DNA of 51,054 nt, filler included, from Jimgerdemannia flammicorona (taxonomy: Eukaryota): NCBI GenBank assembly GCA_003990765.1. It is 2 parts of 2 records of this genome, joined end to end, with 100 filler letters (N's around TTAATTAATTAA, not from the genome) between each part and the next. Parts side by side here need not be neighbours in the genome. Positions count along the whole stretch, not along the records: positions 25,579 to 51,054 come from RBNJ01000827.1; 1 more part is not named here. One strand, given 5' to 3'. The notes below the pieces were generated by a model, which was not told the origin of the DNA, ran no database searches, and saw nothing but the letters and a program-made list of their open reading frames with translations. Below, in pieces: positions 3,883 to 51,054 of the stretch. Numbering within the stretch: the first letter of the stretch is position 1; every line of letters begins with the position of its first letter. The position numbers were made by a program, and so were the translations under genes.

Positions 3883-3892
3883 TTAGTGAGAA

Positions 3893-3942
<50 letters not shown>

Positions 3943-4044
3943 GTGTTTGTGGGAAATTTTTTTTTTTTTTTTTTTTTTTTATAGTCACTTGGACTCCTTT
4001 ATTCCACTAGTCTATAGAGTTACACTATTCATATCTCTCATCGA

Positions 4045-7743: not shown

Positions 7744-7755
7744 GAATATAAATGT

Positions 7756-9512: not shown

Positions 9513-9736
9513 ACACTCAGAGCTTGATGAACTCTGGATCGCTATCTGACGAAAACTCCACTGAAACAGACAAGACTTGTTGTATATTGTAGCTAGACTC
9601 CTGCTGCACCTTGTACACCAGAATAGATGATGGGAAAACTTGAAAACATATTGCTTGTCATGAAAAGATGTCTGTGTGGCTTAGCTTGCTTGGAATAGTT
9701 CAAGCAAAAGGAGTCCAGCTCTATTAGTGAGAAAGT

Positions 9737-11110: not shown

Positions 11111-11509
11111 ATTGGTGGAAGGCTTTACTGTCTCCTGGGTCACAGAGAAGTCTTTCTTTTCTTCTGGGACTTTTTGCTATTTTCTGATAGATTTAGCTTA
11201 TAGACTTCTCTGTGAGTTTAATTGAGGAAGAGTACTAAGTATCCTATGATGGTTCCTTTTGGCAAGATGATGCTTTCTCAGCTCTAATTGATTGCTCAGA
11301 AGAATACTGGATTTATCTTATCAAGAAATATATATCCCTTAATGTTCAGGTTTGGGATATCTTCATTAAGTTTAAAGAAGAGATTTCTGGAGTTAGATAG
11401 TATAAAGATTTTGAAGATGGTTTGCTCTCCTGGCTCTAGGATAAGATTTTTGTATAACTTGACTAGTTGGTAATATACTTACTGGGGGGTATTCTTCTTG
11501 AGGTGTCTT

Positions 11510-17646
<6,137 letters not shown>

Positions 17647-25329: not shown

Positions 25330-25334
<5 letters not shown>
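23916..25334 (+). mobile_element. Gypsy B, 5' part (LTR 23916-24982, PBS ~24983-25002, leader), same family as Gypsy A
   Basis: Reverse-complement similarity to 21240-22672; truncated at 25334 by a poly(T)-tailed insertion. Confidence 0.8.
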
Positions 25335-25368
<34 letters not shown>

Positions 25369-26420: not shown

Positions 26421-29400
26421 ATTTATTACTTCATACTCTCCCAGCCAATATTCAGGTGTCTGTACAACCCCTCTCTTCTACTCAATATTAAAGTACTTCT
26501 TACACTCTATAGCACTTCTCTCTATCAGATATTCTGACTGAAAATTTGATATTATATTATACTACAGCAGTCTCAACTATACTATCTAAAACTTAGAGCT
26601 TGCTTTATGACCAAATATCATTCTAGCCCCACTCTTTACTATCTTTATCCTCTGCTCTACCTTTGGCCACAAATCTCTCTCCTGCTCTCAAAGATATTCT
26701 ATACTATCTCAAACTGAAATTATTCACTGATGTACTCTTTAGCAAAAGATGGTCCCACTACTATATCTGGGGTCTCCAGTCTATCTCCCCCTTATTATCT
26801 TACTAGTAGAGACTAATATAATGAGCTTCATCCATCTACTCTCTATCAGAATCTCTGAAAATATATCTTTTAGCTCTTCTCCAATACTATCAGAGAAAGC
26901 AAGTCACTATATATACTATAGAGAGAGAACTATATCTCCCACACTTACTGCATTAGAGATATCTACTTATAGCCCCTCAGCTTACTAGCTTACTTTAGCC
27001 ACTATACCTACAAGCAGTATAGATATTTGAAAAAGTCCCCCAGACTCAACCCACACCAGTCTACTAGCACTATCAATACCTTCTAATCAATCTGACTCTG
27101 TTATTCAGTCTACAACTAGGTTCTAGCCATCTTTAATAACCTCCTGACTACTTATACTAAAAAGTTCAAGTAATATCCTAGATATCACAACTTTGGTAGC
27201 CAATATATATTCAATACCAGCCAGAGAGATATACTAGCCTTTCTACTCTAGAAGCATATTCTCTCATTCTACCAGCTGCTATTCTCACTATCTCCTCAGT
27301 AATAGAGAATCATATACTAAGAAGTAAATTTCCAAATAATACACTACCTCCCCAGCTGAGACAACTGTACTAATTATATTTCTACTTACTATTCCTTTAT
27401 CTAACACTATAGTCTCATACTTGTACTAGTTAAGCTTAGTCTCTGAGCATCTCTCATATTATTTCACAGCTCTCTTCAGTGCTACCACATTTACCACCAA
27501 GTCCAGACTGATTATTATATCATTAGCAAAGGCTCTCATCTTCCAATTCATTTCTAGAATATTCAACTCTCTCACCTTGTACTAAATTCTATCCAACAGT
27601 AGTTCCAAGAAGAGTACTTCTCTGCTCAGGGAGAATGAAACCCCTCTGTATCTATTTACCAGAATACCTGCCTGACTTCCCTTCAGCAGACTGACCAAAG
27701 ACTGATGAAATCCTGGAGGAACTCCAATATACTTCAGTACCCCCTCTAGCCAAACTCACTAGACTCTGTTATATACCTTCTCCTGGTTCAAAAATATCAG
27801 ACAACCATCCACCCCTGCAGTATATGTCCTCTCAATGATACTATATACCTATGCTATCTCATCTCTTATCTGATGGTCACTGTCAAAGCCCCTCTACTCC
27901 TTCCCCAGTATCCATTGGGCCACTCTCTGTAGTCTATCCACTAATATTTTTATAACTAACTTGCAATCTATATTCAGAAGCATGATCAGCCTCCAATGCT
28001 TCTACTCCTCCTATCTCTCCTTATTCTTATACAATAGAGCTATAAGATCTAGATACTGTCTCCTAATCTAAGTCCCAGAGCCAATAACCTCATCACACAT
28101 CTATAATATCTTCTCTAAAACCAACTTGACTCCTACCATCCTCTTCCAGAAATCCTAAGATAAGCTATCCTCTCTGAGGGCTATCTCAAGACTCATCATT
28201 ACCAGTATCAGACAGATCTTCTCTCTTTTGACTGATACTCCAAGTTCATCCAAACTCTATGCTGGGTCTGGATACTAGTCTTTTAGATATCTTTCAATAT
28301 CCAGAGCATCCTCTCTCACTCTACAAATATCTCCACTATGCATTTAACTAGCTCAAGATTCTCTGAGTCCTCACTACTATCTTTTCTATCTCATTCAATA
28401 CTCTCTCCCACTGCTGTCTCACCCTCCTCACCTAAAGAAGTCTCAACAGAAACTTTGTAGGCTCTTCTCTCTCTTCCAAGCTTGACTATCTCAACTAAAC
28501 TACCATACTCTTCATCTATAGGTCCTTCTCCTACCTCAGTAGCCTTTTCAATTCCTCCATCTCAAGCTGGATCTACTGAACCCTTCAATCTCTCTCCTCT
28601 CTATCTGTTAGTAATTCAGCTCACATTATCAACATCTTCTCTAACTACTGAGAAGCCCACTATAACCAACCTCTTCTCTGAGCACTCTTTGCCCTCTCAT
28701 CCTCCTCTCAGAACCATTGAGTATCTAATTTTAACTACTACTATCAATCTTCTATCCCCAGCCCTTTTGCTCTCTAACTATAGATACTGATACTAATGTC
28801 CTCTATCTATACATTCCATAAGAAGAGCTCTTTCAGTAATGATATATTTAGGTGTCAATGTCTAGACCCCTCTCTACTTCCCCTAAAACTATAATCCAGA
28901 AGCTCTCAATAATTCAACCATGGGCACCAAACTATCTTCAAAGCTTCTCAGATATCTCTTCTCCAATACTCAGCAGTTAAGATCCAGTCAATCCTCAAGT
29001 TCAGCCCAGCTATCCAGTGAGTATAAACCCTGCAATCTCCTCATCTAAGTTACTCTGTATCCACCAGAGAGCTCAGACTTTTGATCTCCTTCCAGCCTTC
29101 CATTCCTCTACTCCTAAAAGCCATCTCCCTCTCCCCATCTATCCTGTCCAATAACCCATCATGAATTATATTAAAGTCTCCACCCAAACAGTCTATCCCT
29201 ACCTCTACTATAATATCTATATCTCATAGTCCTCTTATCCACTTCAAGTATGCCCCCTTTTCTGCCAGACAGTAATATGATCTAACAGTCAAGAGACTCT
29301 AGCCTGGCCTTCTCCATACTCTCTATACTACTCTACTACCCCAGTATCTGATGTCCCCAATGTCTCCCTTACTCTTCTGAACTAGAATACCCACCCTTCC

Positions 29401-31584
29401 TCTCTATATGACCACTCCCCCCCATTCCTTCATCTAGTCCAGCATTTCCAAGTCTTCTTTACATCTTATATCCTACAGCAAGAACAGATTAGTATCCAGT
29501 TCCCTCAGCTAGTAGAAAATATTCTGACATCTCACTATATCTTACAAATCATTGATATTTAAAGAGAAGATTCTAGTTATACTGTTCATATTGAATAATG
29601 TTTGAAGATAGATCCCCTACTCTATAATTCCATACTCACTATATTATCTGTCACATCTAGATTTCTCTCCACCTCAATCTCATCTACCTCCTTCTGCTGA
29701 GTATTCAGCACCTCTAGAATCTCCTGATAATCCTTATCATCCTGTACCTCTATTGAAGACCTATACTCCTTGCACACTATCTGCCACTTTGCCAATCTCT
29801 TCCTGGAGCCCTACAGATAAGACATATGATTATTTACAATTATCAGAAGAACTGTCTCTCTGTTATCATCTATCTCATACTTCTCTGCCTCTAGCAGAAC
29901 TACCATCAACTCATCCTAGAGCTTTCACACCATCTTATCTCCTTACAAGATATCATCACAGTATCTCTCACTAATAATATAAAAATCCACCTCATCTAAC
30001 TCATTAGCTATAATATTTATCAGTACCTTCTACAACTATCTCTTATCTCCAATAGCCTCATCTATTCTCAGGACTACCTCCAGCCTCTCAGCTCCCTGAC
30101 TGCTATTAGCATTTATCCTCACCAACTCATCCTAGTCCTCTTCTAGCACATTCTATAGCTCATTCATTCTCTCACTCCCTATAGACACTCTATACTGAAC
30201 TTGGGTCCTCTCTACCATTATTTTATCTTCAGCCACTACACTCTGTTCTGGGTCTCCACTCTTCTCCAGAGTTGCTTTCTGAGCCACTCTATTCTCCCTT
30301 GCCTAGGCACTTATCTTTAATCAGCTCTCTTAGTAAAATTCTCTCCCTTGGCCCTCCTTTCCAAATTCACTAACAAATCGCCTCTCTTGAGCCCTCTCTC
30401 AGGTAGCCCAATCTAGTTGCACTCTCTTGCCATTTACAGTCTCCACTACTATCTTAGCCTCAAACGTCTTTTAGGCCAATCATCTCCTTTTAACAGTACC
30501 AGCCAAATCTTCCAATATCTCTAGCAAGTCCTCCTCCTCCTCTAGTATTCCCTTTATTCTTGAGATCTTATACTCCACTGAGCCCCATTTAAGTGCTACT
30601 GGTAAATCTCATCATTCTCCTTATCTACCAGTCTCACCCTAATATCTACATTCTCTGTCCTAAACTCTGTACCTTTCCAGACCTAGAATCCAACATCCAC
30701 TATATTCCCATACTCCTTAATAGCATCAACAATCAGTCTTCTAACTATCTCCTTCTTCACCTTAAGCACATTTGCTACCACTAGCTGATTCTTCCAAGAG
30801 TCTCAGAGTAAGTATCTAGCTATAGAAACTACTATCCCCTCTATCACTACTCCTTTCTCCAATACTTCCAACATCAAATCCTCCTCCTCAAAGCCCACCT
30901 CTACTCTTTCCAGTCTCTTTAAGAACTTTATCAAGACTATTCACCTCCTAAGCCAGAAGTCTCAGAATTATTTTAGCTATAACTACTAAACTCTAGAAGC
31001 ATAGTATAACTACAAATTTAGATACTAATTTCTTAAGTAATAGTACTACCACCAGATATGTTACACTATCAGCCAGGTCTCCAGTTCTCATGCCCCCCCC
31101 TCCCCCCCCTCTATTCTGACCCACTATCAGCTATCATATTTGGATTTTTTTTTTTTAGATTAGTAGTCTCTCTTCTATCAGCAGTCCCACTTTCCTTAGC
31201 TCCTACTATTTCAGCTCTACCACTACCACTACCTTGAGCTACTCTATCAGATTCTATAGCCCCCTCCTTTCTCTTTTCTCGTTACAGCCAACTCTCCAAT
31301 CCTATCAATAAATATCCTGCCTTGACCTTTTCAGTAAAGCTCACTTTTCTAGTCTCTTATCTACTAGCTCTATCTCTTCTACCCCCTTATCTACTAGATA
31401 GAGAGCCCAACAAGCTCTTCTCCCAAGCTATGACTTCTTTCTACATACTATTAGTCAAATACCCTGCCCAGCATACTCTTTAGATTACTTGTTAGTCACT
31501 ATATTACTATTACCTTTTCTTCAAAAATGATGTTGAAAGTATTGTCAGAAGTTTGTATAACCAAAATAATACTGATAAAAGATA
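26421..31584 (-). mobile_element. LINE-C: degenerate L1/Tx1-like element with intact 5' end, 3' end cut by copy 3b
   Basis: ORF2 ATG at 29589 (IFSLNINDL), GGDFN, RIDWI, FLNQEKVYN, AFAND; ORF1 remnant and 5' UTR similar to LINE-B. Confidence 0.85.
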
Positions 31585-34500: not shown

Positions 34501-35280
34501 AGTCATTGTCTTCTACTTTATTATTGCTGAACTAGATTATATTATAAATATTCTTCATAGTATATCCTACTTAAGATATTTGTAGAATATAATTATCTGG
34601 GTATGTGAAGGGTCTGTCTGTGGTTTAAATATATGTACTTAATATTTCTAATTGAGTTCTTATATCATATTATCAATTTGACCATAGGTCAGAATAACAA
34701 TCATTTTAGTAGTAGTGACTTGGAGGTAGAGAATAAAAATACTATACTTATAAAAGAGTTCTTAGTGTTTACATATAATGAGCTTCTAGTATTGAGATAT
34801 TTTGATAATATCTATATTATAGTAGTAGTTAACCATATCTTCTAGGAGGCAGCCAATCTGATAGTAGCTTGAGATTTGTCTGATTCAGTGAGTCTTACTA
34901 AGTATATTCAGATCATTCCATTGAGCTTCTATAAAGTAGAGAAGGGCTAAGCTATAGATATTTATAAGAGGTAGAGATACTGTGATCTAATTGATAATAA
35001 TATTCTAAATATTAGTACAGATATAGTTATAGACTTCAGTAGTTATATCTGGGTATATGTTTGAGAGTTATGATTATTATTTTGGTTTATTATAGTTCTC
35101 TGTTTTAGTATACTAAGTGTTTGATATATTTACTTTCAATCTTAATTAGTAAGATTTTATTTTTATATATCTTGTATTCTATAACTTTAAGTTGACTCAG
35201 CTTCATAATCTTATATGTGATTTCTAAATTTGTTTTGAGAGTAATGTGTGATTTCAATAGCTTAGAGGTTGTATACTTAT
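31590..35280 (-). other. Unidentified, heavily mutated coding-like relic; portion near 31.6-32.2 kb resembles retrotransposon gag
   Basis: Minus frames whose stops are largely revertible; segments such as QYYS*TMIAKF*VKLCNLKF and FETFCTKLESLLNTVD; no diagnostic motif. Confidence 0.3.
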
Positions 35281-35284
35281 ATAC

Positions 35285-36606
35285 TCAACTCAGTAAGAGA
35301 GATATAGTACTCCCACCTAACTCTAAAAGACTACTCTCCAATCTACTATCTTCTTCTTCTATCAAATACTAGATAAGAATAATCTATATACTGATAGAAA
35401 AATTCTCAGATACTACACCATCTCCTTGACAAGAATAATAGTATCTATAATATTTCCACTTATCAAACTATTTTCCAGTACTATTATCTCACATTTATGC
35501 TAGTTGAGCTTAGCTCTAGAGCACTTCTCATATCAGTCTACAATAGCCCTCAGCTTACTAATATCATCAATAGAACTAAGTTTAACTATATATCATTAGC
35601 AAAGGCTCTAATCTTTCAGATAATTTCAAAGATCTGAAGCCACAATACCTTATAGCAAATCTTATCCTTTAATGACTCCAAAGATAAAGTATATAGAATA
35701 GAGAACAGCAGATCTCCCTGAGAGACTCCTCTCTATAATGAGAATGAGATACTATGATGGTTATTATACAAGATTACTATCTGGCTACTCTCTAATAGAC
35801 TAATTATTAATAATTTAAATTAGTAAGAGATATCAATCCTCTTTAATATCTTTTTTAGCCAGACTCACTATAGCCAATTATAGGCCTTCTTTTGATTCAG
35901 AAAGACCAATTGTCCATTCAGTCTACTAGTCCTCATCTCCTCAATTATACTATAAATTCATAACATCTTATCTCTAATCAGTCTACTATTAATAAACTTC
36001 TCTGCTTAACTCCTAACATCTGTTGAGCCATCTTCTGCAATCTCACAATAATCATCTTTATGACCAACTTCCTATTTATATTTAAAAGTATGATTAGTCT
36101 TCAGTTTCTTTAATTCTCTCTCCTGTTCTTGTCTTTATATAGTAGTATCACTAGGCTGAGATTCTGACCCCCAACTTACTCTCTAGATATAAGAACTAAG
36201 TTATATAGTACTGTCATCTCCTCTAAGATTCTTAGAACTTCTATCATCTTTTTTTAGAAATCTCAGAATAAGCTATTCTTACTGAGAGCTATGCTCTATT
36301 TTGTAGTCAATAAGATACTCAAAATTTTATTCTTCTAAACTAGTAAAACCAAGTCTCCAAGACCATCAACCTGTAGTAAATATCAACTCTTCAGAGAGTA
36401 CTCAATTACTTTCTCATCAGCACTCTCTTTTTTCTCACTTTATAGGCCACTCTATCTATTTTTCAAAAAATTTAAGATCTCTGCATTCTATTCACTAGAG
36501 TATTCTCCACATTGAATACTTCATCTACTACTACCTCACTCTTCTTATCTGAAGAAGCTTAGATAGATACTTAGTATATCTCTCATCTTCCTCAAGCCCT
36601 TGCTAC
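35285..36606 (-). mobile_element. LINE-D: internal ORF2 (RT) fragment
   Basis: Minus strand VSQGDLLFSILYTLSLE, AFAND, FLNQKKAY, GLEEDERYTKY homologous to the other LINEs. Confidence 0.8.
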
Positions 36607-37760
36607 TAATATTATTAGATTTATATTATATATTAGTAAGATTATATATATATTAGAATTTTATAATAATTTTAGTATATAATATTATAATAGTTATACT
36701 AGTTATAACTAGTATTACTATGGTTATATTTTAAAAATAGACTAATAATATTAATAATATTACAGATTAAAATAGTCTATAATATCTTAAAAACTAAAGT
36801 ATATTAGAATTAACTACTAATATTATTGGCTTACTGATATCATAAGTTAGTTCAGATGAGTTAATTTATTTCTTATTTAATATAGATATAGATAAAAGAC
36901 CTCTAACTCTATATATAGAAGTCTATTACTACTATATAATATAATATATTATATTATAGATCTATAGCAAAATCTAGAACAATTATCTCATAGTTGATTT
37001 ATAAAAATGATATTATTAAATAGTACTATTATATATAACCTAATAATAATACTATTATAGTATAACTTTTATATTATACTTAAGTAATTTTATATTTTAT
37101 ATTTCTTAACTAATAGCTAGTTGAATTCAAAAGATTTTAAAAATATATAAATATTTTCAAGAATATAACTCAATAAAGCTCAGATTTCTTATCTTTTAGA
37201 TAATAAGAAAATAATTAAGACTTAGGATTATAATTTATAAATAAGTCTCTAAATTACTTAAAATAAGACTATATATATCTAAAATAGATATTCTGAACTC
37301 TATAAATACTTAAACTCTAAAAAATATATAAAATTCTCAGACTCAGGCTATATCTGAAAAAGATATATTAAAAGACTTAAACTTTAAAAGAATTGAAGCC
37401 TATAATTATTAAATTATTATCTAAGTCTATTAGAAGAGAACTATACAAGTTAATTATAAGTATAACAAACAGTACTTAGGTATTAAAACAGCCACTTTCT
37501 CAAGCTAAATATTTCTGATATAAGTGTCTTTAAGTTATTAATACTAAAGATTGTAAACTTAAAGAATATAATTACTTTAATAGTAAAAAATACTATTATA
37601 TACTATAACTAGCCCTGTAAGATAATATACTTAGTACTGAGAAAAGACTAGAGAAAGGATATGAAAATACAATAACTAAAATATAATTAAGAAATTGTTA
37701 CAATAATTTTATTATATTTTCCCCTCTTTATAGATTTAAAGAGTTATATAATTTTTTCTT
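36607..37760. repeat. Extremely AT-rich mutated relic, family not identifiable
   Basis: Very high AT and TpA content, no CpG seen, no ORFs in the track. Confidence 0.45.
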
Positions 37761-38305
37761 GATCTTTTATAAAAAGTTGATTGCCCTATTAAGGTATTGG
37801 ACTTTTGATTTAACCAGATGTCATGTTGATGTGCTAGAACTAAAACCCCAAAAACGAAATATGCACAAAAAGAGTGTACAAGTTGGATGAAATAAATGTG
37901 TTATGCCATTTCGTCCAATTTTCTTGATGGTGACGACATGAAAAATTGTGTGACGTCACTTTTTTTTTTTTTCGGTTCAAAACAAAGATTTTGCAGCAAG
38001 CAGCCGATTTCCCTGTTCGAGCCCTATGAATTAGTCTGAACCTGCAGTTGCTAAGGGTAGTATGGCTCCCGCCCATCTCTACATGTGACCGTGACTGTGT
38101 GGTAGCTTACGGCTCATAACGACTCCCGAACCAACGGGTGTGAACGTGTAAGACTTTGATGTGGGATGTACTGTTCTTACATCTAGCACTTCAACGTTTG
38201 TTAAATATCTCTGTGCAGATAAGTATTTCATATTAACCTGCGGAATTTTGTATATTCTTCGAAATCCGAAACACCTACTAACTTTATTTTTGACCGGTTC
38301 CTTAT

Positions 38306-38363
38306 ACCGGTCTTGGTTGCTGTAAACCAACTGATGAGCCCCTTAAGCAAGGGCGAAACCGGT
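38306..38363 (+). ncRNA. Type III hammerhead ribozyme
   Basis: ACCGGU-C^-UUGGUU(GCUGUA)AACCAA-CUGAUGA-GCCC(CUUAAGCAA)GGGC-GAA-ACCGGU: complete core, three Watson-Crick stems (6/6/4 bp), GUC cleavage triplet at 38310-38312. Confidence 0.93.
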
Positions 38364-38499
38364 TCCACAGAAACACCTCTCCAGCTGCACGCAACCCATC
38401 TTCCATTGCCGCAAACACACACACTTTTACTATGTGTCAGTGTGGTCCTGCCGATGTTGAGTGCTGCATGTGTTTAGACAGCTCAAGTTTCCAACAGAG

Positions 38500-39260
38500 T
38501 CATAAGGTAATCCAAGCCAGGCAGGCATATCAGCCTTGTGAACGATGACATGCAGGGGTTGAGGTCGGGGTATTTCCATAGTTATGGTCATAATTTTTCT
38601 TCTTTTTGATTTGTGTGGGTACAGGCTGGAGAGGACTATGGGATAAAGAGGCTGTGTTCAATCCTGGTAGGAATGCTGAGTTGCTGTTTGGTTTACCTAT
38701 GTATGTGTTCCGTGGTCACAGGCAAAATAACTCCTTAATCAAAACCCCTCTCGCAGCCTATGAGGTGGCCCTGCATATTACGAATCTGCACAAGATCTAC
38801 TGTTCCTCCATCTTCAGAACTGACGCCCGCAAGGTCGCTGTGAATGACCTTTACTTGATAAGAAGGGCCAGCTGTGCGTTCTTTTCGGTTTAATGATGTT
38901 GTTCCTTGTGTGCTTGGCATTTTAGTTGGATTATACTGACAGCGTCTGGGCCAAAACGGCACAGGAAAGAGGTTTGTTTATCCTCATACTGTCGAAGGTG
39001 AATTGCATATTGGCTAACTGGGATCAGATTGTCTGCTTTTGCCACAATTCAGCTCTACCATGAACATCATCTCTGGCCTCACCCTAGCCACGGCTGGCGA
39101 TGCCCTCCTCTACGGCCTAAGTGTGTGTCATTCCCAAAGCTATCCCTGAGCAGGTGCGGGATTTTTTTGTGCGTGTATATACCCTTGTGGTCGGACGAGA
39201 TGACGTAGGGAGGCTATGGACGAGATGGCGGTAGCGACGGTAGCAGTAAATCTTTTCAAC
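38500..39260 (+). pseudogene. Intron-rich gene remnant(s) of unknown product
   Basis: Several short GT..AG segments with ctgac/ctaac branch-like motifs (~38667-38721, ~38874-38943, ~38971-39028); no continuous spliced ORF could be built by eye. Confidence 0.3.
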
Positions 39261-39264
39261 TCTA

Positions 39265-39550
39265 CGAAAATGTCAAAAAGCTGATGCTGGTACTAAGATC
39301 GTAATCCGTCTCATAAGTTACACCTATTGTCACTCGCAGCTGTGGATACGCAATGGCCACCTCATCAAGGCGAAGCATGTTCTTGATATTGCTGGCGGTT
39401 TACTTATATATTCTTCGCATTCTCATTTTGATATATTGGCGCTTATCCTCCTGCTTCTCTCGAATTTCAGGTAAACTCGCTGCTAGGTCCTCGCTCATCC
39501 AGTGGGAGCAGAAATCTGTTGAGAAAGCCGAAACTCTCACTTCGCATGGT
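39265..39550 (+). pseudogene. Ricin-B / CBM13 beta-trefoil lectin-like fragment with one intron (39398-39470)
   Basis: Spliced translation AGTKIVI...SQLWIRNGHLIKAKHVLDIAG^GKLAARSSLIQWEQKSVEKAE has the QxW, VLDI.G and LIQW ricin-B patterns; in-frame stop just upstream and no clear start. Confidence 0.6.
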
Positions 39551-40598
39551 CCTCCGCCTCTTCACATGAGGACACCGCTCTTCTGCATACTTGTACAAGT
39601 TTGTACGACTTTATATATTATATAAAGAACGATGCATGCGTCCATTTTGTGCTAGGTATAGACTCCGTGAACCACTGTCATGTCTGGTCATTCATTGAGA
39701 ACTTCAAAAGGATAGGAAGAGGGATGCGAGGTCATTTGCACTGGGCGAACAGAAAGGGAGAAGAGGGGACTATCGGCCCAGGGTGGAGTTTGTGTTTTGA
39801 TGATTTTAAATTTATATCATTCCAGTGTACTCATTCATGATTTACTTCCCAGACGCAAGTGCTGCAAAATGCGCGGTTGTTGTGGGCACCAACGCATACT
39901 CCCCACGATCCCCTCGCCCCCGGAGATGACGGACGAACAGTTCCTCCTTGGAACTGGTGTGCAACTATTCTACTCCTTCCAATGACGATGCATGGATGGG
40001 CATCGACTCCTTCACACAACATGTATGCTGGTGACGGGTCCAGTATGTCTGACCCTCAGGGTAAACGCCGCAATCATATACATCAGGAAACATGCCAGTA
40101 GGGATGCTGGTGAGGGGACACTGAGGAATGGGTATATTGGGGGAGTGAGTGTTGTTCAGGAGGACGGGAGGGAAATACCCAAAAATGACCTATGAAAAAA
40201 ATTATGAACGAAATAGCCTGATTAAAATGTAACATGTAACAATTGTCAGATAATAACTGTTGCTGGAGGTTCGTCAAGCTTTTGTTGCCCCGTAAACCAT
40301 GCTCTGTATTTTACCAATTGAAACAATGCAATGAGATCATTTCATTTTGGACCTGACTAGGAAGGTGGAATATTTATTCATTTTTAACTCGGCGCAACAC
40401 CCTGTTGATATTCGTTTTAGTCCATCTGATTCATTTCTAGCAATTATCTAAGATCCTATGCTGCAGTAAACGTGCAATTACATTCGTCCACGATATTTCC
40501 CCAAAGCTCTTTATCGAACGACACTAATAGCATATAATTATATATCCCCCCTGGCAATACCACAATTGGCTAATGTCCTCTCACCGTCACGCCATTGG

Positions 40599-41810
40599 CT
40601 ATACAATTGGCCCAACAATAGACTCCATGATCTCATCAATGACAAACTCATTGCATTCTGTCTCGATTTTGAGTCCCGGGTTAAATTTTTCGATCTCCTT
40701 CATAACGGACTTGGGCAGATTCCGCACCATATGTTGGACGTACACAATACAACTCTTGACGTGTCCGTTGCGCACGTGGGACCCGAGCACGCTGGCAAAC
40801 TGGCGGAATGGCACCATCGATATCTTGGGGCAGTCGGACATAGCGAACTGCTTGATCGAGGGACAAATACGCGGGGTACGGTTGCCGGAGAGGTATTGTA
40901 GGGCCTCGTCATTAAAACATGAACGAGAGATGTTGACAAATTGAAGAGCATCACATGCAGCAATGATCTTAGCGAGAGTGACGCCCTCGATAAGTTGGCA
41001 CCCCGTGAGAACGAGACACTCTAGAGTGTGGGCGAGCATATTAAAGCAACCAAAGATGGACTCGGTGGCGAGAGGCGTAGTACAGTTGACGAACACAACA
41101 ATCTTGAGAAGCTGGCATGTGTCGGCAATCGCGGACAGGAGATTGTTTGACAGAGGATCACGCAATCTTTGCTTATTGACCTGGTGGGAAAGGCGAAGGC
41201 TGCACAGGTTTGGAAGGAGTCTAATAATCCTGCAGTATTGTGCCTTCTTGATCCCTCCGACGTTTTTGAGATCCAAGTGTTTCAGTCCCGGCCAATGTTT
41301 GACAGCGGATATTAGTGCATCACCATCGCAGAAATGACGGAAGTGGAGAACGAGTTCGGTAAGGCGGGGCCAGTGAGTACGCATGGCCAAGAGAACGCGG
41401 ACATCATTGATCCAGTTCGTATTGCAATTCAGCACTTTAAAAGAAACTATATTAGGACAGGCCTTGATGAGGCTGCAGATGTCGTCATCTCGGTTTAAAC
41501 GCTCGGGGCACATGGAGAGGCGCATGGTGCGAGCAGTGCTGCCATATTCTCGATATCGATCATTCCAAAAGTAGTAGTCCATCATACTTTTGTAGCTTGC
41601 AAATACGACGTGTGTGTAGAGGAAGTGCATAGCAGGATTGCGCCATGCCCTTGCAACTAGAGCAAAGTTACTCATGTCGCGGCTATAATTACGGTCGATC
41701 TTGACATATCCCAGCATGATTGCTACGACCTCCTCGGGGAGGTGGAAAGTCTTAGGAGTTGTCTCAGACAGAGTATCAAATAGACGGGAGATTTGGCGCT
41801 GGAACTCCAT
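40599..41810 (-). CDS. F-box-like / leucine-rich-repeat (RNI-like) protein, 403 aa, intronless
   Basis: Uninterrupted ORF in CpG-normal DNA; LPEEVVAIMLGYV...FALVARAW F-box-like N-terminus; LRRs such as CPNIVSF, WPRLTELVL, WPGLKHLDL, LPNLCSLRL, LECLVLTGC. Confidence 0.9.
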   Translation of the reverse strand: MEFQRQISRLFDTLSETTPKTFHLPEEVVAIMLGYVKIDRNYSRDMSNFALVARAWRNPAMHFLYTHVVFASYKSMMDYYFWNDRYREYGSTARTMRLSMCPERLNRDDDICSLIKACPNIVSFKVLNCNTNWINDVRVLLAMRTHWPRLTELVLHFRHFCDGDALISAVKHWPGLKHLDLKNVGGIKKAQYCRIIRLLPNLCSLRLSHQVNKQRLRDPLSNNLLSAIADTCQLLKIVVFVNCTTPLATESIFGCFNMLAHTLECLVLTGCQLIEGVTLAKIIAACDALQFVNISRSCFNDEALQYLSGNRTPRICPSIKQFAMSDCPKISMVPFRQFASVLGSHVRNGHVKSCIVYVQHMVRNLPKSVMKEIEKFNPGLKIETECNEFVIDEIMESIVGPIV

Positions 41811-42289
41811 GCTTATGATACGTGAATTGTTGTGGGGCGGGAAGGGTAGCGAAGCAAAAAAAACTTATTAGAATGCAGTCACATAGGCCACCGAATTTTT
41901 ATCGATGAACAGTAATTCACCATGCTTACCACAAGAACCTCTCAAACAGCTTGTGCCGTCGATGGCTTCGCTTTGGTTCCAATATACCAGCTCCATGCTC
42001 AGAATCAGTGTGCCAGGTACAGAGACAGCAAATATTTGGTACTGCAGTATACAATAGAAAATCCTGAGCTGTTAAATACTCATTGTATTCTGGATTCTTG
42101 CTATTTGGTCAATGGAATGTGAAAAGGAACCAAGCTTCCATAATAAAACCACTTCCCAAAAAAAAAAAAAAAAAAAAAAAACAACTCATCTCAAATTTGA
42201 TGAGTGAGTATTTTTTATTTTTTATTTTTATAAGTGAGTATTTATTAATTACTTATTATATATATATAATAAATAATATCTTATACATA

Positions 42290-45288
42290 GTGGACTGCTG
42301 GGGTTTGAATGTTTAGAAGTCACTGAAGGCCAAGTGGTGTCTGTGGTCTAATCATTAGGGGCTATTGAGACAGTGTCATTTTGGGAGGAGTGGGGATAGA
42401 TCTGGATATTAGTACCTCAATTCCTCTTTGTTAGCTGAGAAGGTATTGTGAGATAAGTGGGCTGAGGATATTTAGCAAAGAGTAGAGGATTGAGTATGAG
42501 AGGGTGCCCCAGTTGGTGTCTAATAGGTATGGTTGAAGGAGGCTGCTAGGGTTTATTAGAGAGAAACTAGCAAGGTAGCAGAAAGGTAAAGAAGGAGGAG
42601 AGTGTCCCAGGCTTCTGCTAGATTGGCTAGGCTTTTGGAAAATTGGGCAGATCTTTTGGCCCTAAAGGGGGTGGAGAACTAGAGGTTGATGCTGACTAAG
42701 CTGAAGGTTGCAGAGTTATAGCAGGTGTTAAGAGAGGAGGAGGAGATACAGGTGCAGAGTTTGGCAGTATAATTATGCTGGCAGGGGCTGGAGGAGGGGA
42801 AGAGGTCCTCTAAGTACCTTTCAAAGATCCTTCAGGCCAGGAGAGTGAGACAGAGATGGGAGGGGATACTGGATTCTGATGGCCTACTTGTGCATAGTCT
42901 ATAAGATATTCTAGGATTGTTAAAGGAGAGGTGGAGTGGTTTGTGGAGTGAGTATTAATAAAAGAAGGAGTCTGAGTAACTATAAAAATGGTTTGTAAAG
43001 TGAGGAGGATGATGGGGCTGATGCAGCTACCATTGAACATACTTTGGAGGATTAGCACCTACTACAAGTAGATGGGCTGAACAGTTTGATGGTACTAGTA
43101 TAGGAGGAGGAAATTTGCCAGGTTCTTGCTATAACTATATTGAGCATGATACCAGGAGAGGATGGTCTGCCCTGGGACTTCTGGAAGAAGATAGTTGGAG
43201 TTTCTGGAGTGCTGAGAGAGATGATGGTGCTTTGTAACTTAGTATTACAGTCAGGGAGGTGGGTGGGTGAGCAAGATCTGAGGCTGGTGGTACTGCTTTA
43301 TAAGGACAAGAGCAGGAGGGAGGACTAGAAGAACTGGAGGCCTATCATACTCCTAGATATGGATAGAATGTTGGTCACCAAGATAGTAGTGATGAGACTG
43401 CAGAAGATGGCCCAGCAAGTCTTAAGTGAGGAGCAGTGAGGTTTTATAGGGGGCTGACTTATTAGAGATAGCACAGCTTGGGTGTACAATATCATTGAAG
43501 GAGCTCAAGTCTGTAGACTAGATGGGAGATTGGTCTTCTTGAACCAGAAGAAGGCATATAATCATATTCAGCAAGTCTGGTTGATAAAGGTTCTAGATAG
43601 AATTGGTGTCTCTTAGTAGTTCTAAGTGATAATGATCAACCTACTAGATGGGAGTAGAGCAGTGCTCATATATAATGGACATTGAGGGGTAGCATTTCCT
43701 CTGGATAGGGATGTTCTCTAGAGGGATCCACTGTCTCCTATTTTGTATGCTCTATCCTTGGAGCCATTGATAGGATTTGGTAGGAGATAGTAAGGCTTTC
43801 AGTATTTGACATTGTGTGAAAAGTTGGGGCCTTTGTAGATAATATAGTAGTTAGTCTGAGATCAGTTGCTGATATTGAAGAACTCTAGAAAATAGCAAAG
43901 TGGTATGAGGCATACTCTGAGGCTAAAATCAACTAGTACAAGTGTGAAATGATAGTTCTGGACAATGACCTGATAGAAGAGAATGTTATTGGAACAATTG
44001 TTTCTACTGGAGAGGCTGTGAGGTACTTGGGCATCTATCTCTTAGTATATGGATCAGTCCTACTAAGACCTTGGTGGAAGCAGTGGGTGGCTATCTGGGG
44101 GGAGATCCTGAGGAGTTGGGGAGGACACCATATGTCTTTGATAGGGCATGTTGCAATTTTGAATATCTACTAGCTACCAAAGCTATAGTATTTGGTATAT
44201 TATCTAGACTTTCCTGTCTGAATAGTGAAGAGGCTGTTGAAGCTGACCAAAGATTGGATCTGGGCTGGGAGGAGAAGTCAGATTAGTTGGGAAATCTTGT
44301 CATTGCTGGTAGCTAGAGGAGGTCTTAGGCTGGTTGAATTTCTAAAGAGACTGCATTGTCTGAGAGCATGGTGGCTGAAGAGAGCTATGGAACTGAGGGA
44401 TAGTAGCTGGGTTTCTCTAATAAAGAAGGTCTGAGAGATGAGGTTCTTATCAAGAGGCTCTATGAGAGATCTACTGTTCTTGGTTGGGCTTTAGAATAGT
44501 GAGTATATGTAGTATAAGAGCTTCTGGTAGGAAGTAGTCAATGGGGTACACTACATCGATATTTGCTGGCAGAGGGCTGAAGGAGAGATGCTTTGGGGTC
44601 TGGTGATGTAGAGATGAGATCAAGTATTATTAGGGGGTACTCTCCTAATTGACTTCAATATTGGTGATAGTATCAAGTCTCAGAGAGAATTGGAACAGGA
44701 TGTTTGGCCTAGTGGTTGGCAGATGGTGGGTATTGGAGAAGAGTGGGACTGGAATGGGGTCTGGGCCTAGAGTGCAGAGATATAGTATTGACTGCCACCT
44801 AAGTACTAGGTAGTTTGGTGGTACATATTAAAGAGGAATGTCATGCTTAACTTTCACTCAGACCACCTGGTAGAGGAGAGTAACTTTGACTATAAGAAGT
44901 ATTACAATGTAGAACAGGAAGGGGGGTTTGTGCAGACACCAGAACATTAGCTAGGAGAGAGTAAGGTACTTAGTGACTTTTGGTTAGTAGTTAAGAATTG
45001 ATTAGATGTTGTGAGAAGGGGGGATGGTGAGAGGGAGTGGTGGAAGGATCTGAGAGATAGATTGGTGAAGGAGGTTGAAAAGGAGTGGCTCACTATAGAT
45101 TGAGTTTTGGTGGTATGAGTAGGGCTGGCAGGACACTAGTTGTTTGTTTTTGAGAAAGAGAGGTATTTGGGATTGGGGGAGTAGCTGTTATAGTAAGAAG
45201 GGTTGATAGAGGATGTCTTGACAGACTGGTGGCTGAGATGGAGTCTGCAGAGTAGTCAGAGACATTGTCTGATAGAGAAAATTTATAG
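42290..45288 (+). mobile_element. LINE-E: 5'-truncated degenerate element (APE end, RT, C-terminus), interrupted near its 3' end by LINE-F
   Basis: WCLWSNH, IPGEDGLPWDFWKK, FLNQKKAY, DPLSPILYALSLEP, AFVDN; last bases gatagagaaaatttatag match the LINE-B 3' region. Confidence 0.85.
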
Positions 45289-45462
45289 CATCTCTCTCTG
45301 CTACAATTCATGTTACACACACTTTACAACATACTTTCGAATTGTTTATTGGAGAAAGATATTAAGGAGATGTCAACCAGTAAGCGAGCTGATGCACATC
45401 CTAGGTCAGGTGGACCTGGGGCCTTCAACTAGCAGTATGTTAGGAGAGGGTATGGACTGGGG

Positions 45463-47403
45463 ATGGGGTCTTTTGGTGGATCGAGTGGACTGGGCAGCTC
45501 GGGGGGTGGAGGAGGCACTGGTGGGGGGGCTGGAGGGCAGCAGGGAGGGAGCTTTGTGGATGCACTTAAGGCTGGGGGTTGGCCGAGGGGTGCTCGCAGT
45601 GGACAGGCAGGAGGAAAGGGGAAGCAGAAGGTTGGTGATGCTGGAGGAGCTGGGCCTTCGCTGGTGGGAGGTAGAGGGAGTGGAGTAGTGGCTGGGGGTA
45701 GTGGCGGGACTGCTGATGGTAGTGTGACAGTCAATCAGGAAAAAAAAAGAGATGTGATGGCTGATGGCCAGGGGGGGCAGGGGCTCCCAATGTGAAAGGG
45801 GGACCTGGCTGATAGTATAATGAGACTGGCGGTGGCCCCATTGCTCAAGAAGTCAATCTCGGAGTTTGCAGCTATCTTGTGCTTCCGGGGCTTGGTGGTG
45901 ATGGCGAGGATGGTCCTGGGGCTTATCTCAAGGCAGGTGACTGGTGCAGCCTCAGTGAAGTTCTTGAAGGGCATGGAGGGAGTTGAGGTGGGCTTTGAGG
46001 AGGCAGGCCTACTGGACGAGGCCATGAAGACAGGAGTGGTGGTTGGAGAGGTGGTGGTCCCCATGGTAAGGTGCTTGAGGTGGGACCCTAGGGTGGTGCA
46101 GCTTCTGGTGAGAGAGGTGCCCATGGTGACTAAGGAGGAGACTAGGAGGAGAGTGGAGGAGGTGATGGTAGAGTATGGAGATGTGGTGGACATTGGATTT
46201 CAGTTGTGGGAGGGGACAACTATCAGGATGGGCGACGTCGATATCAGGATTCGGTTGGCAGGGAAGGAGGCCACAGGGAAGACGAGTGATTGGCCCTTAG
46301 TGCTGATGTGGGGGGCCATCATCTGTAAGGTGTTGAGGGTGAAGGGGAGTGAAGAGGAGGAGGAGGACTTGTTGGAGGTGCTGGAGGAGTTGGGTGATAC
46401 AGTGGAGAGGAGGGCAAAGGCCTGGAAACTGTATGAGGAATCGATGCATCTGGAGGTTGTGGGTGGGAGGCATATCCATATAGATAAGAAGCAGTGGGAG
46501 TGGGTCCAGGGATGCAAGAGGCAGAAGGAGCTATTGGCGGGTATGACAGATAGGGAGAAGACGAAGTCAGATGGAGCTGAGGAGTCTGGAGGCGCTGAGG
46601 CCAGTGTCTGGGCTGGTAAAGGAGGAGAGGAGGTAGAGGTAAAGGAGGCAGGGGCTGGGAAGGGGCTGGACAAGGACCCATTCGCTGATGGTACCTTTGA
46701 AGTGTGGGAGCTGGAGTTGGATACCACCCCCCCCCCACTTATCAGGAGGGGCCCAGTGGGGAAGAGAGGGAGGACGGAGGATACACAGATGCAAGGGGCC
46801 CAGCAGGTGCGCTTTGGGGTCTCTGATGTGGCTCAAGGGGGTCAGGTGGTGGCAATTGGTGAGGATGAGCTGGCGGATGTCCCTGATACGGAGTGGGATG
46901 AGGCTGCTAGTGTAGGAGCTGACACCACGATGTTGGATGCAGGGCAACTGGGGACTCTGGGAGGGAAGGAGGTGGGGAACTTGTTGTGGGTACACAAGGT
47001 GATGGATAACCTCACAGCTGAAGTATTGGGGGAGGTAGACCTGCAGGCGATGCCTGAGGAGCATTGGGCAAAGATCCTGCGTGGGGATGGAATAGTGGAG
47101 GCACTGAAGGTGGAGATCCTGGTGATTTTAATGGAGGAGGAGGGATATGAGGTTGACGAGGTGAGGAAGGTGGAGCTGGGGGTGGTCGCTGCTGAGTGGG
47201 CAGACTACTGTTGGGCAGAGCATTGGGGTCTGCAGCTCTGGCTGGAGGCCTGTCTGGAGTATTGTGAGGATTTTGAGGAGCGTGAGGATGGGGCAATGGT
47301 AGAACTTCTGGGAGAGTTGGAGGTATGGGAAGCTGGGGAGAGGGAACTGGCTGCTGAACTTAACTTGGACTTGGCGCAGGAGAGGCAGGATGCCGACTTA
47401 TAG
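45463..47403 (+). pseudogene. LINE-F ORF1 (~646 codons, single in-frame TGA at 45793-45795)
   Basis: ORFs 45463-45795 and 45820-47403 are in frame; Gly-rich N-terminus, SFVDALK, RRM-like core, acidic C-terminus. Confidence 0.85.
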
Positions 47404-47435
47404 AGGATGGGCTCTGAGATATATCATTATTCCTT

Positions 47436-50400: not shown

Positions 50401-51054
50401 GGGCTTGGCCAGGACCTTTGGCCAAGTAGCTGGCAGGTGGTTGGAATTGGAGAGGAGTAGGACTGGGCAGACATCTGGTCTTGGAGTGCTGAGGTACAGA
50501 GGTGGCTTCCTCCCAAGTTCTGAGTGGTATGGTGGAGAATGTTGCAGAGGAATATCATGCTGAATTTCCACTTGGGGCATTTAGTAGAGGGTGGACAATT
50601 TGACTGCAAGGAGTGTTATGGTGTTGGGCAGGCTGGGGGTTTCATATAGACGCCGGAACATTGGCTGGGAGAGTGTGAGGTCTTGGGGGAATTTTGGGCT
50701 GAGATAGGGGATAGACTGGGTATAGGGCATTGGTGAGTGGGGGAGGGGGATTGCTGGGAGGACTTAAGATCTCGGCTTGTAGGTGGGGTGGGGGATAGTT
50801 GGCTCACTGTAGGATGGGTGTTAGCAGTATGGGTGGGACTGGCGGGCCATTGGTTTTTTGTATTTGAGGAGGAGCAGTGGTTGGGGCTGTATGAGAAGGT
50901 GTTGAGGTAGGAGGAGCTGGTGGGGGATCTGCTGACTGGATGGTGGGTGGGTTGGGGTCCTCAGGGAGGATGACGTCATGGTTTGGTGATGAAGATCTGT
51001 GAGCAGAGTGGTGGGAGGGTGGGGATAGTGTTTGACAAAGTAGTCTTTCACAGG
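47436..51054 (+). pseudogene. LINE-F ORF2: APE-RT-Cys region with scattered stops
   Basis: IFSLNVNGLR, LLQD, SGDFN, RIDWIL, WSDH, NWRPIMLL, FLDQEKAYD, GVPQGDPLSP, AFADD, GGLGL, CKEC...TPEHWLGEC. Confidence 0.93.

What the first reader, a model, noticed from the sequence alone, without database searches (positions are those of the whole stretch)
38306..38363. Isolated canonical type III hammerhead ribozyme in the unmutated gene island
Seen: every hammerhead core nucleotide is present (CUGAUGA 38331-38337, G10.1-C11.1, GAAA 38355-38358, GUC with cleavage after 38312). Stems I (UUGGUU/AACCAA), II (GCCC/GGGC) and III (ACCGGU/ACCGGU) pair perfectly. Loop 1 GCU is complementary to loop 2 AGC, a candidate tertiary contact. 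Known: genomic hammerheads mostly occur in Penelope-like elements and retrozymes, often in tandem, and type III motifs are typical of plant retrozymes and viroid-like RNAs. Inference: I see only one copy, with CpGs intact, outside any recognisable element and on the same strand as downstream gene remnants. It may be a domesticated self-cleaving cis-element or the footprint of an undescribed fungal retrozyme or viroid-like integrant.
Basis: partly seen in the sequence, partly recalled or inferred. Interest (0 to 1): 0.88.

Follow-up and report, generated by a model that had tools for sequence, protein, structure and literature searches.

The report
Hammerhead ribozyme from an expressed repeat family
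The flagged 58 bases are a genuine self-cutting hammerhead RNA motif, but it is not a lone oddity: it is one copy of a repeated, strongly represented family, and it is a rearranged version of the ribozyme carried by tandem "retrozyme"-type repeats elsewhere.

Summary
The motif is real. All core nucleotides and three perfect stems sit at 38306-38363 (+). Rfam Hammerhead_3 scores 42.8 bits, below its 48.5 gathering score, with E 4.5e-6 for the whole window. It is the only such core in 51 kb.

It is single-copy only within the window. Contigs from two public runs of the same organism include many different sequences that share the ribozyme core and then diverge. Summed depth there is in the thousands, against 3-12 for contigs identical to this locus.

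One environmental contig, L009, carries a near-identical ribozyme in two tandem 530-nt units. There it has the circularly permuted, minimal type I form typical of non-LTR retrozymes.

My best reading is a dispersed, diverged copy of a retrozyme-like, hammerhead-bearing repeat family. It lies upstream of a spliced, apparently non-coding + strand transcript.

In this copy, a 7-bp upstream hairpin is predicted to sequester the cleavage site, so activity is uncertain.

A fungal host is likely but not established. Cleavage and RNA circles could not be tested. I rate it a new variant of a known kind, of moderate interest.

The parts
38306..38363 (+). Complete type III hammerhead ribozyme motif
   Evidence: Sequence. 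Rfam RF00008 at 42.8 bits over model positions 1-54. Minimum-energy fold of 38300-38370.
38306..38312 (+). 5' strand of stem III (ACCGGU) plus C17. The predicted cut lies between 38312 and 38313.
   Evidence: Sequence and Rfam alignment. Cleavage was not tested.
38313..38330 (+). Stem I hairpin: UUGGUU, loop GCUGUA, AACCAA
   Evidence: Paralogue variants 38326 A>G and 38328 C>T keep the pairing as G-U wobbles.
38331..38337 (+). Catalytic core CUGAUGA (C3-A9)
   Evidence: No variant at 10% or more was listed here among the contigs laid.
38338..38354 (+). Stem II (GCCC/GGGC) with a 9-nt loop 2 that contains AGC
   Evidence: It matches L009 with one mismatch.
38355..38363 (+). Core GAAA and the 3' strand of stem III (ACCGGU)
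38292..38298 (+). Upstream arm GACCGGU. It can pair with 38306-38312 and hide the cleavage site.
   Evidence: Partition function of 38285-38372 gives pair probability about 0.98 for this hairpin and about 0 for stem III. The same hairpin appears in the fold of 38150-38480.
38293..38301 (+). First copy of the 9-nt direct repeat ACCGGUUCC. The second copy is at 38358-38366.
   Evidence: Read directly from the sequence. Its meaning is inferred.
38183..38405 (+). Approximate stretch around the ribozyme that has expressed or assembled paralogues. The limits are inferred from contig joints and loose ends.
   Evidence: One contig of depth 930 joins 38213 to 38261. An 86-nt contig of depth 745 covers 38278-38361 with 6 differences. 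Loose ends behind 38357-38378 resemble the window's own downstream sequence.
38623..40200 (+). Downstream transcript with GT..AG-bounded skips (38665>38756, 38873>39053, 39653>39851). It has no long open frame.
   Evidence: Contigs identical to the window bridge these skips in both runs. The start at 38623 is inferred from the length of record 1. The longest open frame after joining is 102 aa. The local ORFs have no Pfam family.

Best explanation
The motif is a genuine type III hammerhead. It is one dispersed, diverged copy of a multi-copy hammerhead-bearing repeat family, most likely a retrozyme-like non-autonomous retroelement or its derivative.

Its ribozyme is a circular permutation of the minimal type I hammerhead found in tandem 530-nt repeats in L009. 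In L009, stem I is open and stem III is a single A-U pair closing a palindromic CCGG loop. In the window, the roughly 480-nt body between the two stem I strands is reduced to a 6-nt loop, and the palindrome ACCGGU is present on both sides. Stem III therefore forms in cis, and the ribozyme no longer needs a partner copy.

When transcribed on the + strand, it would cut after C38312. That would separate upstream RNA from the downstream spliced, apparently non-coding transcript.

In this copy a third ACCGGU, at 38293, can form a stronger 7-bp hairpin with the cleavage-site strand. Cutting is therefore probably attenuated or conditional.

Shown: the motif, its uniqueness in the window, the existence of many related contigs, and the permuted relative.

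Inferred: mobility, direction of the permutation, cleavage, any circular RNA, and the switch.
For: - Motif and statistics.
- Family: 50 of 92 (X1) and 38 of 92 (X2) laid contigs lie only partly on the stretch. Loose ends cluster at the edges of the ribozyme (before 38323/38324, behind 38357-38378, and 79 more not shown).
- Depth: summed depth at 38328 is 3426 (X1) and 6002 (X2). Contigs identical to the window have depth 3-12.
- Variants: 4 (X1) and 7 (X2) contigs carry 38326 A>G. Three of three stem variants (38308 C>T, 38326 A>G, 38328 C>T) keep pairing as G-U. No variant is listed in the core or stem II.
- Shared flanks: paralogous contigs share the upstream flank (38278-38305; the joint 38213>38261 at depth 930) and the downstream flank.
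- Same arrangement in paralogues: two loose ends before 38323/38324 read GUC, then a stem I strand, then a short loop. Other copies therefore also have the type III layout.
- Permuted relative: L009 matches 38324-38363 (38 of 40) and 38306-38322 (17 of 17) in swapped order, and nothing else in the window. It has two units identical at 530 of 530 positions, followed by unique flank.
- Possible tertiary contact: GCU after stem I and AGC in loop 2 are present in both the window and L009.
- Literature: a one-pair helix III with a palindromic tetraloop in tandem repeats is the described form of amphibian and other animal retrozyme hammerheads (PMC7229834 and PMC4209133, passages read).
Against: - No second hammerhead, long terminal repeat or tandem array lies around it in the window.
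- No retroelement protein lies next to it. Of 91 ORFs of 90 aa or more, only five hit RVT_1 and one weakly hits an AP-endonuclease family. All are in distant LINE-like blocks.
- The runs are contigs whose kind is only guessed as RNA. Depth is summed over contigs and may include other organisms or an RNA replicon.
- I laid reads at 90% likeness, where the tool warns that joints can come from repeats.
- The Rfam score is below gathering.
- With upstream context, the hammerhead fold is not the predicted one: -18.7 kcal/mol against -23.6 for the competing fold and -27.8 for the minimum.
- The only fixed fragment end seen is at 38310, not 38312/38313. It comes from one contig in X2, whose loose letters I recognise from memory as an adapter tail.
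- Only one relative was found outside the organism.
Confidence: 0.55

Rival explanations
1. It is a domesticated, locus-specific cis-acting ribozyme. It processes or down-regulates the downstream spliced non-coding transcript, and the other copies are irrelevant relatives.
For: - It lies about 250-300 nt upstream of, and on the same strand as, a transcript with GT..AG skips.
- It sits in a CpG-normal island while all surrounding repeats have lost their CpGs.
- The three-palindrome arrangement could act as a switch.
Against: - Many contigs share the core and the flanks. The unit is therefore repeated, not locus-specific.
- No listed contig links the ribozyme to the downstream exons. The table was cut, with 200 pieces not shown.
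- No orthologous locus could be examined.
Confidence: 0.1
2. It is an endogenised fragment of a viroid-like or ribozyme-bearing RNA replicon. The abundant contigs are the replicating RNA, and the window holds a DNA copy of part of it.
For: - Type III hammerheads are typical of viroid-like RNAs (PMC7761336, passages read).
- Summed depth is very high.
- One contig in X2 goes back from 38367 to 38312 with 12 letters between.
Against: - Several different flanks adjoin the core in both runs, which fits many genomic loci better than one replicon.
- The paralogues share this locus's flanks.
- The nearest relative, L009, is an array that ends in unique flank. That is what a DNA tandem array gives and not a circle assembled twice.
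- No ribozyme is found on the opposite strand.
Confidence: 0.1
3. It is the terminal-repeat hammerhead of a Penelope-like element, or a solo remnant of one.
For: - Penelope-like elements carry hammerheads in their flanking repeats, including in fungi (PMC4209133, passages read).
- Animal retrozymes are argued to derive from them (10.64898/2026.07.22.740005, abstract only).
- These elements are also known for keeping spliceosomal introns (PMC4209133 abstract).
Against: - No Penelope-type reverse transcriptase or GIY-YIG domain appears among the 91 ORFs scanned. The RT fragments sit beside an AP-endonuclease-like ORF, which is LINE-like.
- The fungal examples described are type I with a large helix III (PMC4209133), unlike this motif.
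Confidence: 0.1
4. It is a chance match with no biological meaning.
For: - The Rfam score is below the gathering threshold.
- The fold energy is ordinary, z = -1.1.
Against: - E is 4.5e-6 for the window.
- 0.01 matches to the core pattern are expected by chance.
- A near-identical ribozyme occurs in an unrelated contig.
- Many related contigs were laid.
Confidence: 0.02

Closest known systems
Non-LTR retrozymes of animals: tandem repeats with type I hammerheads, expressed as abundant linear and circular RNAs (PMC7229834, PMC7761336)
   Same: - The relative L009 has tandem units. Each carries a hammerhead with a 6-bp helix I, a 4-bp helix II and a one-pair helix III closed by a palindromic tetraloop.
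- The window's ribozyme shares stems I and II, loop 2 and the palindrome with L009.
- Related sequences are very strongly represented in the two runs.
   Different: - The window copy is type III (stem I closed, stem III open), single and not tandem.
- The L009 unit is 530 nt with 60% G+C. The reported range is roughly 150-400 nt with G+C under 50%.
- The host is probably not an animal.
- No circles were shown.
[quoted passage not shown]
   Same: Type III topology, a non-coding element, and monomer-competent stem III.
   Different: No pair of long terminal repeats and no second hammerhead within the window. PBS and PPT were not looked for.
Hammerheads of Penelope-like elements, including fungal ones (PMC4209133)
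   Same: A hammerhead tied to a eukaryotic retroelement family, and a palindromic helix III theme.
   Different: No Penelope-like ORF lies nearby. The fungal examples described are type I with a large helix III.
Repeat-associated hammerheads of the yeast Yarrowia lipolytica (PMC3088659, passages read)
   Same: A hammerhead in interspersed multi-copy repeats of a fungus.
   Different: I could not compare sequences or topology. The passages give neither.
Double-hammerhead (dimeric) cleavage in newt satellite and viroid RNAs (as cited in PMC4209133 and PMC7229834)
   Same: The window's stem III is the duplex that two palindromic ACCGGU loops of neighbouring type I units would form.
   Different: Here both strands are on one short RNA, so no second unit is needed.

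Membership tests
Hammerhead ribozyme, type III (Rfam RF00008) | Conserved core: C3-A9 CUGAUGA, G12 A13 A14, the A15.1-U16.1 pair, and H17 at the cleavage site | tested here: met
   All are present at 38331-38337, 38355-38358 and 38311-38312.
Hammerhead ribozyme, type III (Rfam RF00008) | Three helices around the core, with I and II closed by loops and III open, plus the G10.1-C11.1 pair | tested here: met
   Rfam alignment and minimum-energy fold: 6, 4 and 6 base pairs.
Hammerhead ribozyme, type III (Rfam RF00008) | Score at or above Rfam's gathering threshold | tested here: not met
   42.8 bits against 48.5. No hit in the gathering scan. The E-value is nevertheless 4.5e-6.
Hammerhead ribozyme, type III (Rfam RF00008) | Site-specific self-cleavage | not testable with these tools
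   Only contigs were available, and they cannot show ends. The predicted competing hairpin makes the outcome open.
Hammerhead ribozyme, type III (Rfam RF00008) | Loop 1 to loop 2 tertiary contact | tested here: inconclusive
   GCU and AGC are complementary and both are kept in L009, but there is no covariation. One paralogue changes the G (38319 G>T).
Non-LTR (tandem) retrozyme | Head-to-tail tandem units, each with a hammerhead | tested here: not met
   The window has no tandem array and no second motif. The relative L009 meets this feature, with 2 units of 530 nt.
Non-LTR (tandem) retrozyme | Type I hammerhead with a weak helix III and a palindromic loop | tested here: not met
   The window motif is the permuted type III form. 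L009 has the type I form.
Non-LTR (tandem) retrozyme | Abundant monomeric linear and circular RNA | tested here: inconclusive
   Summed contig depth at the core is in the thousands. However, the run kind is a guess and depth is no measure of level. Only one go-back joint was seen, and it has 12 extra letters.
Plant-type LTR retrozyme | Two direct long terminal repeats, each with a type III hammerhead, 600-1000 nt apart | tested here: not met
   No repeat of 38000-38480 occurs anywhere in the window. There is one hammerhead only.
Plant-type LTR retrozyme | Primer-binding site, polypurine tract and target-site duplication | not tested
   The element's boundaries are unknown without other genomic copies.
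Penelope-like element terminal repeat | Adjacent Penelope-type RT, with or without GIY-YIG | tested here: not met
   All 91 ORFs of 90 aa or more were scanned against Pfam. Only RVT_1 fragments and a weak AP-endonuclease hit appeared, all more than 4 kb away.

The most novel reading that the evidence does not exclude
This could be an undescribed lineage of retrozyme-like elements in a probable fungus. In it, the partner-dependent type I hammerhead of tandem repeats has been circularly permuted into a self-sufficient type III hammerhead. That hammerhead is guarded by a third copy of the palindrome, which acts as an on/off hairpin. The family would give rise to very abundant small, possibly circular, RNAs. 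It would also have to survive in a genome that otherwise erases every CpG from repeats, even though three CpGs are essential to the ribozyme.
Probability: 0.2. Interest if true: 0.65.

Novelty: new variant of a known kind. Interest (0 to 1): 0.5.

Why it matters
Hammerheads in eukaryotic repeats are well known from animals (type I, tandem) and plants (type III, in LTRs).

A family that links the two topologies by a simple permutation would show how a dimer-dependent ribozyme becomes a monomeric one. If the host is indeed a fungus, it would also extend retrozyme-like elements to a kingdom where my searches found no report.

Passages in PMC4209133 and PMC3088659 mention only type I hammerheads of Penelope-like elements and repeat-associated hammerheads in Yarrowia.

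The three-palindrome arrangement gives a directly testable switch. If the family turns out to be an ordinary repeat of an already sampled lineage, this is simply one more genomic hammerhead.

Tried and rejected
- Whole genome: none is held, so copy number and shared flanks could not be counted in DNA.
- Sequencing runs: no RNA holder is listed. Both runs are 'RNA?' by guess.
- Parts without cover: 35000-38005 and 42348-45000 are almost uncovered. I draw nothing from that.
- Ends and strand cannot be read from contigs.
- Collection scans with the ribozyme pattern:
  - Prokaryote genomes gave 0.
  - Viral contigs gave 7 loci with a looser pattern (L001-L007 not examined further).
  - Viral contigs gave 1 locus with the stricter pattern (L011, an unrelated virus-like element).
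  - Metagenomes gave 3 loci, of which only L009 is related.
- Rfam does not call L009's minimal hammerhead at E of 0.01 or less.
- Taxon:
  - The F-box-like ORF 40599-41864 (-) has no homologue at 1e-5.
  - A LINE ORF has none at 1e-3 among longer proteins.
  - Atlas neighbours were Mucoromycota or Ascomycota for the F-box clusters, and arthropod or chordate for RT clusters. The host is unsettled.
  - Transition-rich repeat decay (450 transitions against 143 transversions between two LINE copies), TpA-rich AT blocks and CpG-free repeats fit a RIP-like process in a fungus. This is only a lead.
- No tRNA gene is found in the window. Near the motif the tandem-repeat scan finds only short AT-rich arrays and an A24 run, and nothing at the ribozyme itself.
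- Earlier notes of this scan hold nothing on this genome or on look-alikes. The hammerhead notes from other genomes did not bear on this case.
- The L009 monomer folded as a circle is not unusually stable, z = -1.6.
- Literature: a 12-letter sequence search found no paper. One paper id that I recalled is not held.
- I saw no supplementary files for any paper. The supplements of PMC3088659 and PMC4209133 hold the fungal hammerhead sequences that could bear on novelty.

Full report
**1. Observation**

- 5' strand of stem III, ACCGGU, at 38306-38311.
- C17 at 38312.
- Stem I, UUGGUU/AACCAA, closed by the loop GCUGUA.
- Core CUGAUGA at 38331-38337.
- Stem II, GCCC/GGGC, with a 9-nt loop.
- GAAA at 38355-38358.
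- 3' strand of stem III, ACCGGU, at 38358-38363.

Rfam's default scan of the window reports nothing. With E-value reporting, RF00008 Hammerhead_3 aligns end to end (model positions 1-54) at 42.8 bits against a gathering score of 48.5. E is 9.7e-8 on 1.1 kb and 4.5e-6 on the window.

On its own the 71-nt stretch folds into the three-way junction as its minimum-energy structure, with an ordinary energy (z = -1.1). A core-plus-CGAAA pattern occurs once against 0.01 expected. My own scan for a core with a helix II finds no other site on either strand. The motif is real and not a chance match.

**2. Setting in the window**

The motif lies at the left edge of a 4-kb stretch (38001-42000) with CpG observed/expected of 0.72-0.90. 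Every other 2-kb bin has 0-0.32, and several have exactly 0.

The surrounding blocks are decayed LINE-like elements. RVT_1 fragments lie at 5386-5751, 10311-10607 and 13332-13706 on the minus strand, and at 48961-49614 on the plus strand. A weak AP-endonuclease hit lies at 47482-48174.

All 91 ORFs of 90 aa or more were scanned against Pfam. None shows a Penelope-type, gypsy or copia protein.

Within the window the ribozyme region has no second copy, no flanking direct repeats and no tandem structure.

**3. Evidence from public runs**

Two runs of one coded organism hold about half of the sampled words of 37900-42100. Their kind is only guessed as RNA, and they are kept as contigs.

I laid them on 35000-45000 at 90% likeness. 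The results were as follows.
- Contigs identical to the window (0 other letters, 164-536 nt, depth 3-12) cover 38756-41839. In both runs they bridge GT..AG-bounded skips on the + strand (38665>38756, 38873>39053, 39653>39851). Spliced RNA would give this pattern.
- After joining these pieces, the + strand RNA has no open frame longer than 102 aa. The local ORFs have no Pfam family.
- At the ribozyme the picture changes. The bins 38006-38339 and 38340-38673 have summed depths of 711/1553 and 1059/1176 (X1/X2), against 0.3-104 in the other covered bins. At 38328 the depth is 3426 (X1) and 6002 (X2).
- Of 92 contigs laid per run, 50 (X1) and 38 (X2) lie only partly on the stretch.
- Loose ends pile up at the edges of the ribozyme: before 38323/38324 and behind 38357-38378. 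A further 79 are not shown.
- Four (X1) and seven (X2) contigs carry 38326 A>G.
- An 86-nt contig of depth 745 covers 38278-38361 with six differences.
- A contig of depth 930 joins 38213 to 38261.
- Loose ends behind 38357 and 38378 are recognisably diverged versions of the window's own downstream sequence.
- Two loose ends before 38323/38324 read GUC, then a stem I strand, then a short loop. Other copies therefore have the same type III layout.

The three variants inside stems (38308 C>T, 38326 A>G, 38328 C>T) all turn a Watson-Crick pair into G-U. None is listed in the core or stem II.

Caveats apply. Depth is summed over contigs and may include other organisms. Contigs recruited through the core are biased towards a conserved core. 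Three compatible transitions out of three is weak evidence, with a chance probability of about 1 in 8.

Even so, 'isolated' cannot stand. The locus is one member of a family whose other members are far more strongly represented.

**4. A relative elsewhere**

One scan of the metagenome collection, using the core, stem II and adjoining bases, gave three loci. L008 and L010 are an unrelated element (see section 8).

L009 is a 1294-nt contig read on its minus strand. It carries two head-to-tail units of 530 nt that are identical at 530 of 530 positions, followed by 234 nt of unique sequence. This is the edge of a DNA tandem array and not a circle assembled twice.

Each unit contains, in order:
- the 3' strand of stem I;
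- CUGAUGA;
- the same stem II and loop 2, with one mismatch;
- GAAA;
- CCGG;
- UC;
- the 5' strand of stem I, followed by GCUG.

BLAST finds only two matches between L009 and the window: 38324-38363 (38 of 40) and 38306-38322 (17 of 17). They are in swapped order and overlap on L009's single ACCGGU.

L009's ribozyme is therefore type I, with a one-pair helix III closing a palindromic tetraloop. Passages in PMC7229834 and PMC4209133 describe this form for animal tandem-repeat (non-LTR retrozyme) and Penelope-like hammerheads, which cleave efficiently only as dimers. Rfam does not call it at E of 0.01 or less.

The window's type III motif is what results if the roughly 480-nt body of such a unit is replaced by a 6-nt loop and the palindrome stands on both sides. 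The intermolecular stem III of the dimer becomes an intramolecular one. I cannot tell which form is ancestral.

**5. Would this copy cut?**

The palindrome ACCGGU occurs three times, at 38293, 38306 and 38358. The first and third are each followed by UCC, giving a 9-nt direct repeat.

With only 14 more upstream bases included, the partition function gives a probability of about 0.98 to a 7-bp hairpin (38292-38298 with 38306-12). That hairpin buries the cleavage site. Stem III gets a probability of about 0.

The hammerhead secondary structure scores -18.7 kcal/mol. The competing fold scores -23.6, and the minimum is -27.8. The 331-nt fold shows the same hairpin.

Energy models ignore hammerhead tertiary contacts, and viroid hammerheads are also masked by alternative folds. 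This therefore argues for attenuated or conditional cleavage, not for inactivity.

One X2 contig carries 25 loose letters directly before 38310. I recognise them from memory as an adapter tail. This indicates a fixed fragment end three bases upstream of the predicted cut and remains unexplained.

**6. Explanation and rivals**

- Best reading (0.55): a dispersed, diverged copy of a retrozyme-like, hammerhead-bearing repeat family, permuted to a monomeric type III form. On transcription it would cut after C38312.
- Locus-specific domesticated ribozyme for the downstream non-coding RNA (0.10). The shared flanks among paralogues weaken this.
- Endogenised piece of a ribozyme-bearing RNA replicon (0.10). 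The many different flanks and the DNA-array relative weaken this.
- Terminal repeat of a Penelope-like element (0.10). No such ORF was found, and the described fungal forms differ.
- Chance (0.02).

**7. Comparison with what is known, and novelty**

The motif works like a type III hammerhead and meets the structural definition, but not Rfam's curated score. It is not a member of either described retrozyme class on the features I could test: it is neither tandem nor flanked by LTRs. Its closest relative does meet the tandem type I description, though with a larger (530 nt) and more G+C-rich (60%) unit than reported for animals (PMC7761336, passages read).

Fungal genomic hammerheads in print, as far as my searches reached, are two kinds. 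One is the type I form of Penelope-like elements, with a large helix III (PMC4209133). The other is repeat-associated motifs in Yarrowia (PMC3088659).

I read passages only, and no supplements. For 10.64898/2026.07.22.740005 I saw the abstract and outline only.

The host's kingdom is not settled. The repeat decay pattern suggests a fungus.

Verdict: a correct catch of a real ribozyme whose 'isolated' status is wrong. It is a new variant of a known kind, of moderate interest.

**8. Seen in passing**

L008, L010 and L011 share a different type III hammerhead. It begins at the stop codon of a 567-aa ORF with no Pfam family.

Each L009 unit gives a weak match to the Alu domain of SRP RNA (22 bits against a gathering score of 105, E 0.003).

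All LINE-like copies in the window are G-rich and C-poor on their sense strand.

Noticed in passing
window 4000-9700, 12000-17500, 27000-31500 (minus-sense) and 42300-51054 (plus-sense): Decayed LINE-like copies (RVT_1 fragments, weak AP-endonuclease) have a G+C skew of about 0.4-0.55. The sense strand is always G-rich and C-poor where RT or endonuclease fragments show which strand that is (4000-17500 and 42300-51054); for 27000-31500 the sense is only inferred from the same sign of skew. CpG is almost or entirely absent. Two copies differ by 450 transitions against 143 transversions, with G/A differences mostly after T or G. This points to a strand-consistent, transition-type hypermutation of this family. 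It is not explained.
   Followed up: partly
L008 1960-2040, L010 1500-1580, L011 530-610 (minus strand): A different type III hammerhead starts right at the stop codon of a 567-aa ORF with no Pfam family. It occurs in three environmental contigs of 2.1-5.2 kb, one of them filed as viral. It may be a ribozyme-bearing RNA virus-like element. It is unrelated to the window apart from a similar stem II.
   Followed up: partly
L009 468-644 and 998-1174 (minus strand): Each 530-nt tandem unit gives a weak match to the Alu-domain end of Plant_SRP RNA (22.1 bits, gathering 105, E 0.003). This hints that the retrozyme-like unit may contain a 7SL-derived module.
   Followed up: no
window 38310: One contig of run X2 has 25 loose letters directly before 38310. 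I recognise them from memory as an Illumina adapter tail. This means an abundant fragment end lies 3 nt upstream of the predicted cleavage site.
   Followed up: no
window 40599-41864 (-): This is an intact 421-aa ORF covered by contigs identical to the window. It looks F-box/LRR-like by language-model neighbours only. It has no Pfam family and no homologue at 1e-5 among 5.8 billion clustered proteins.
   Followed up: partly
window 37958-37972 and 42158-42181: A T13 run and an A24 run bracket the CpG-normal island. Similar A/T runs recur at 3887-3980, 11690-11789 and 25330-25362. They may be retroelement tails.
   Followed up: no
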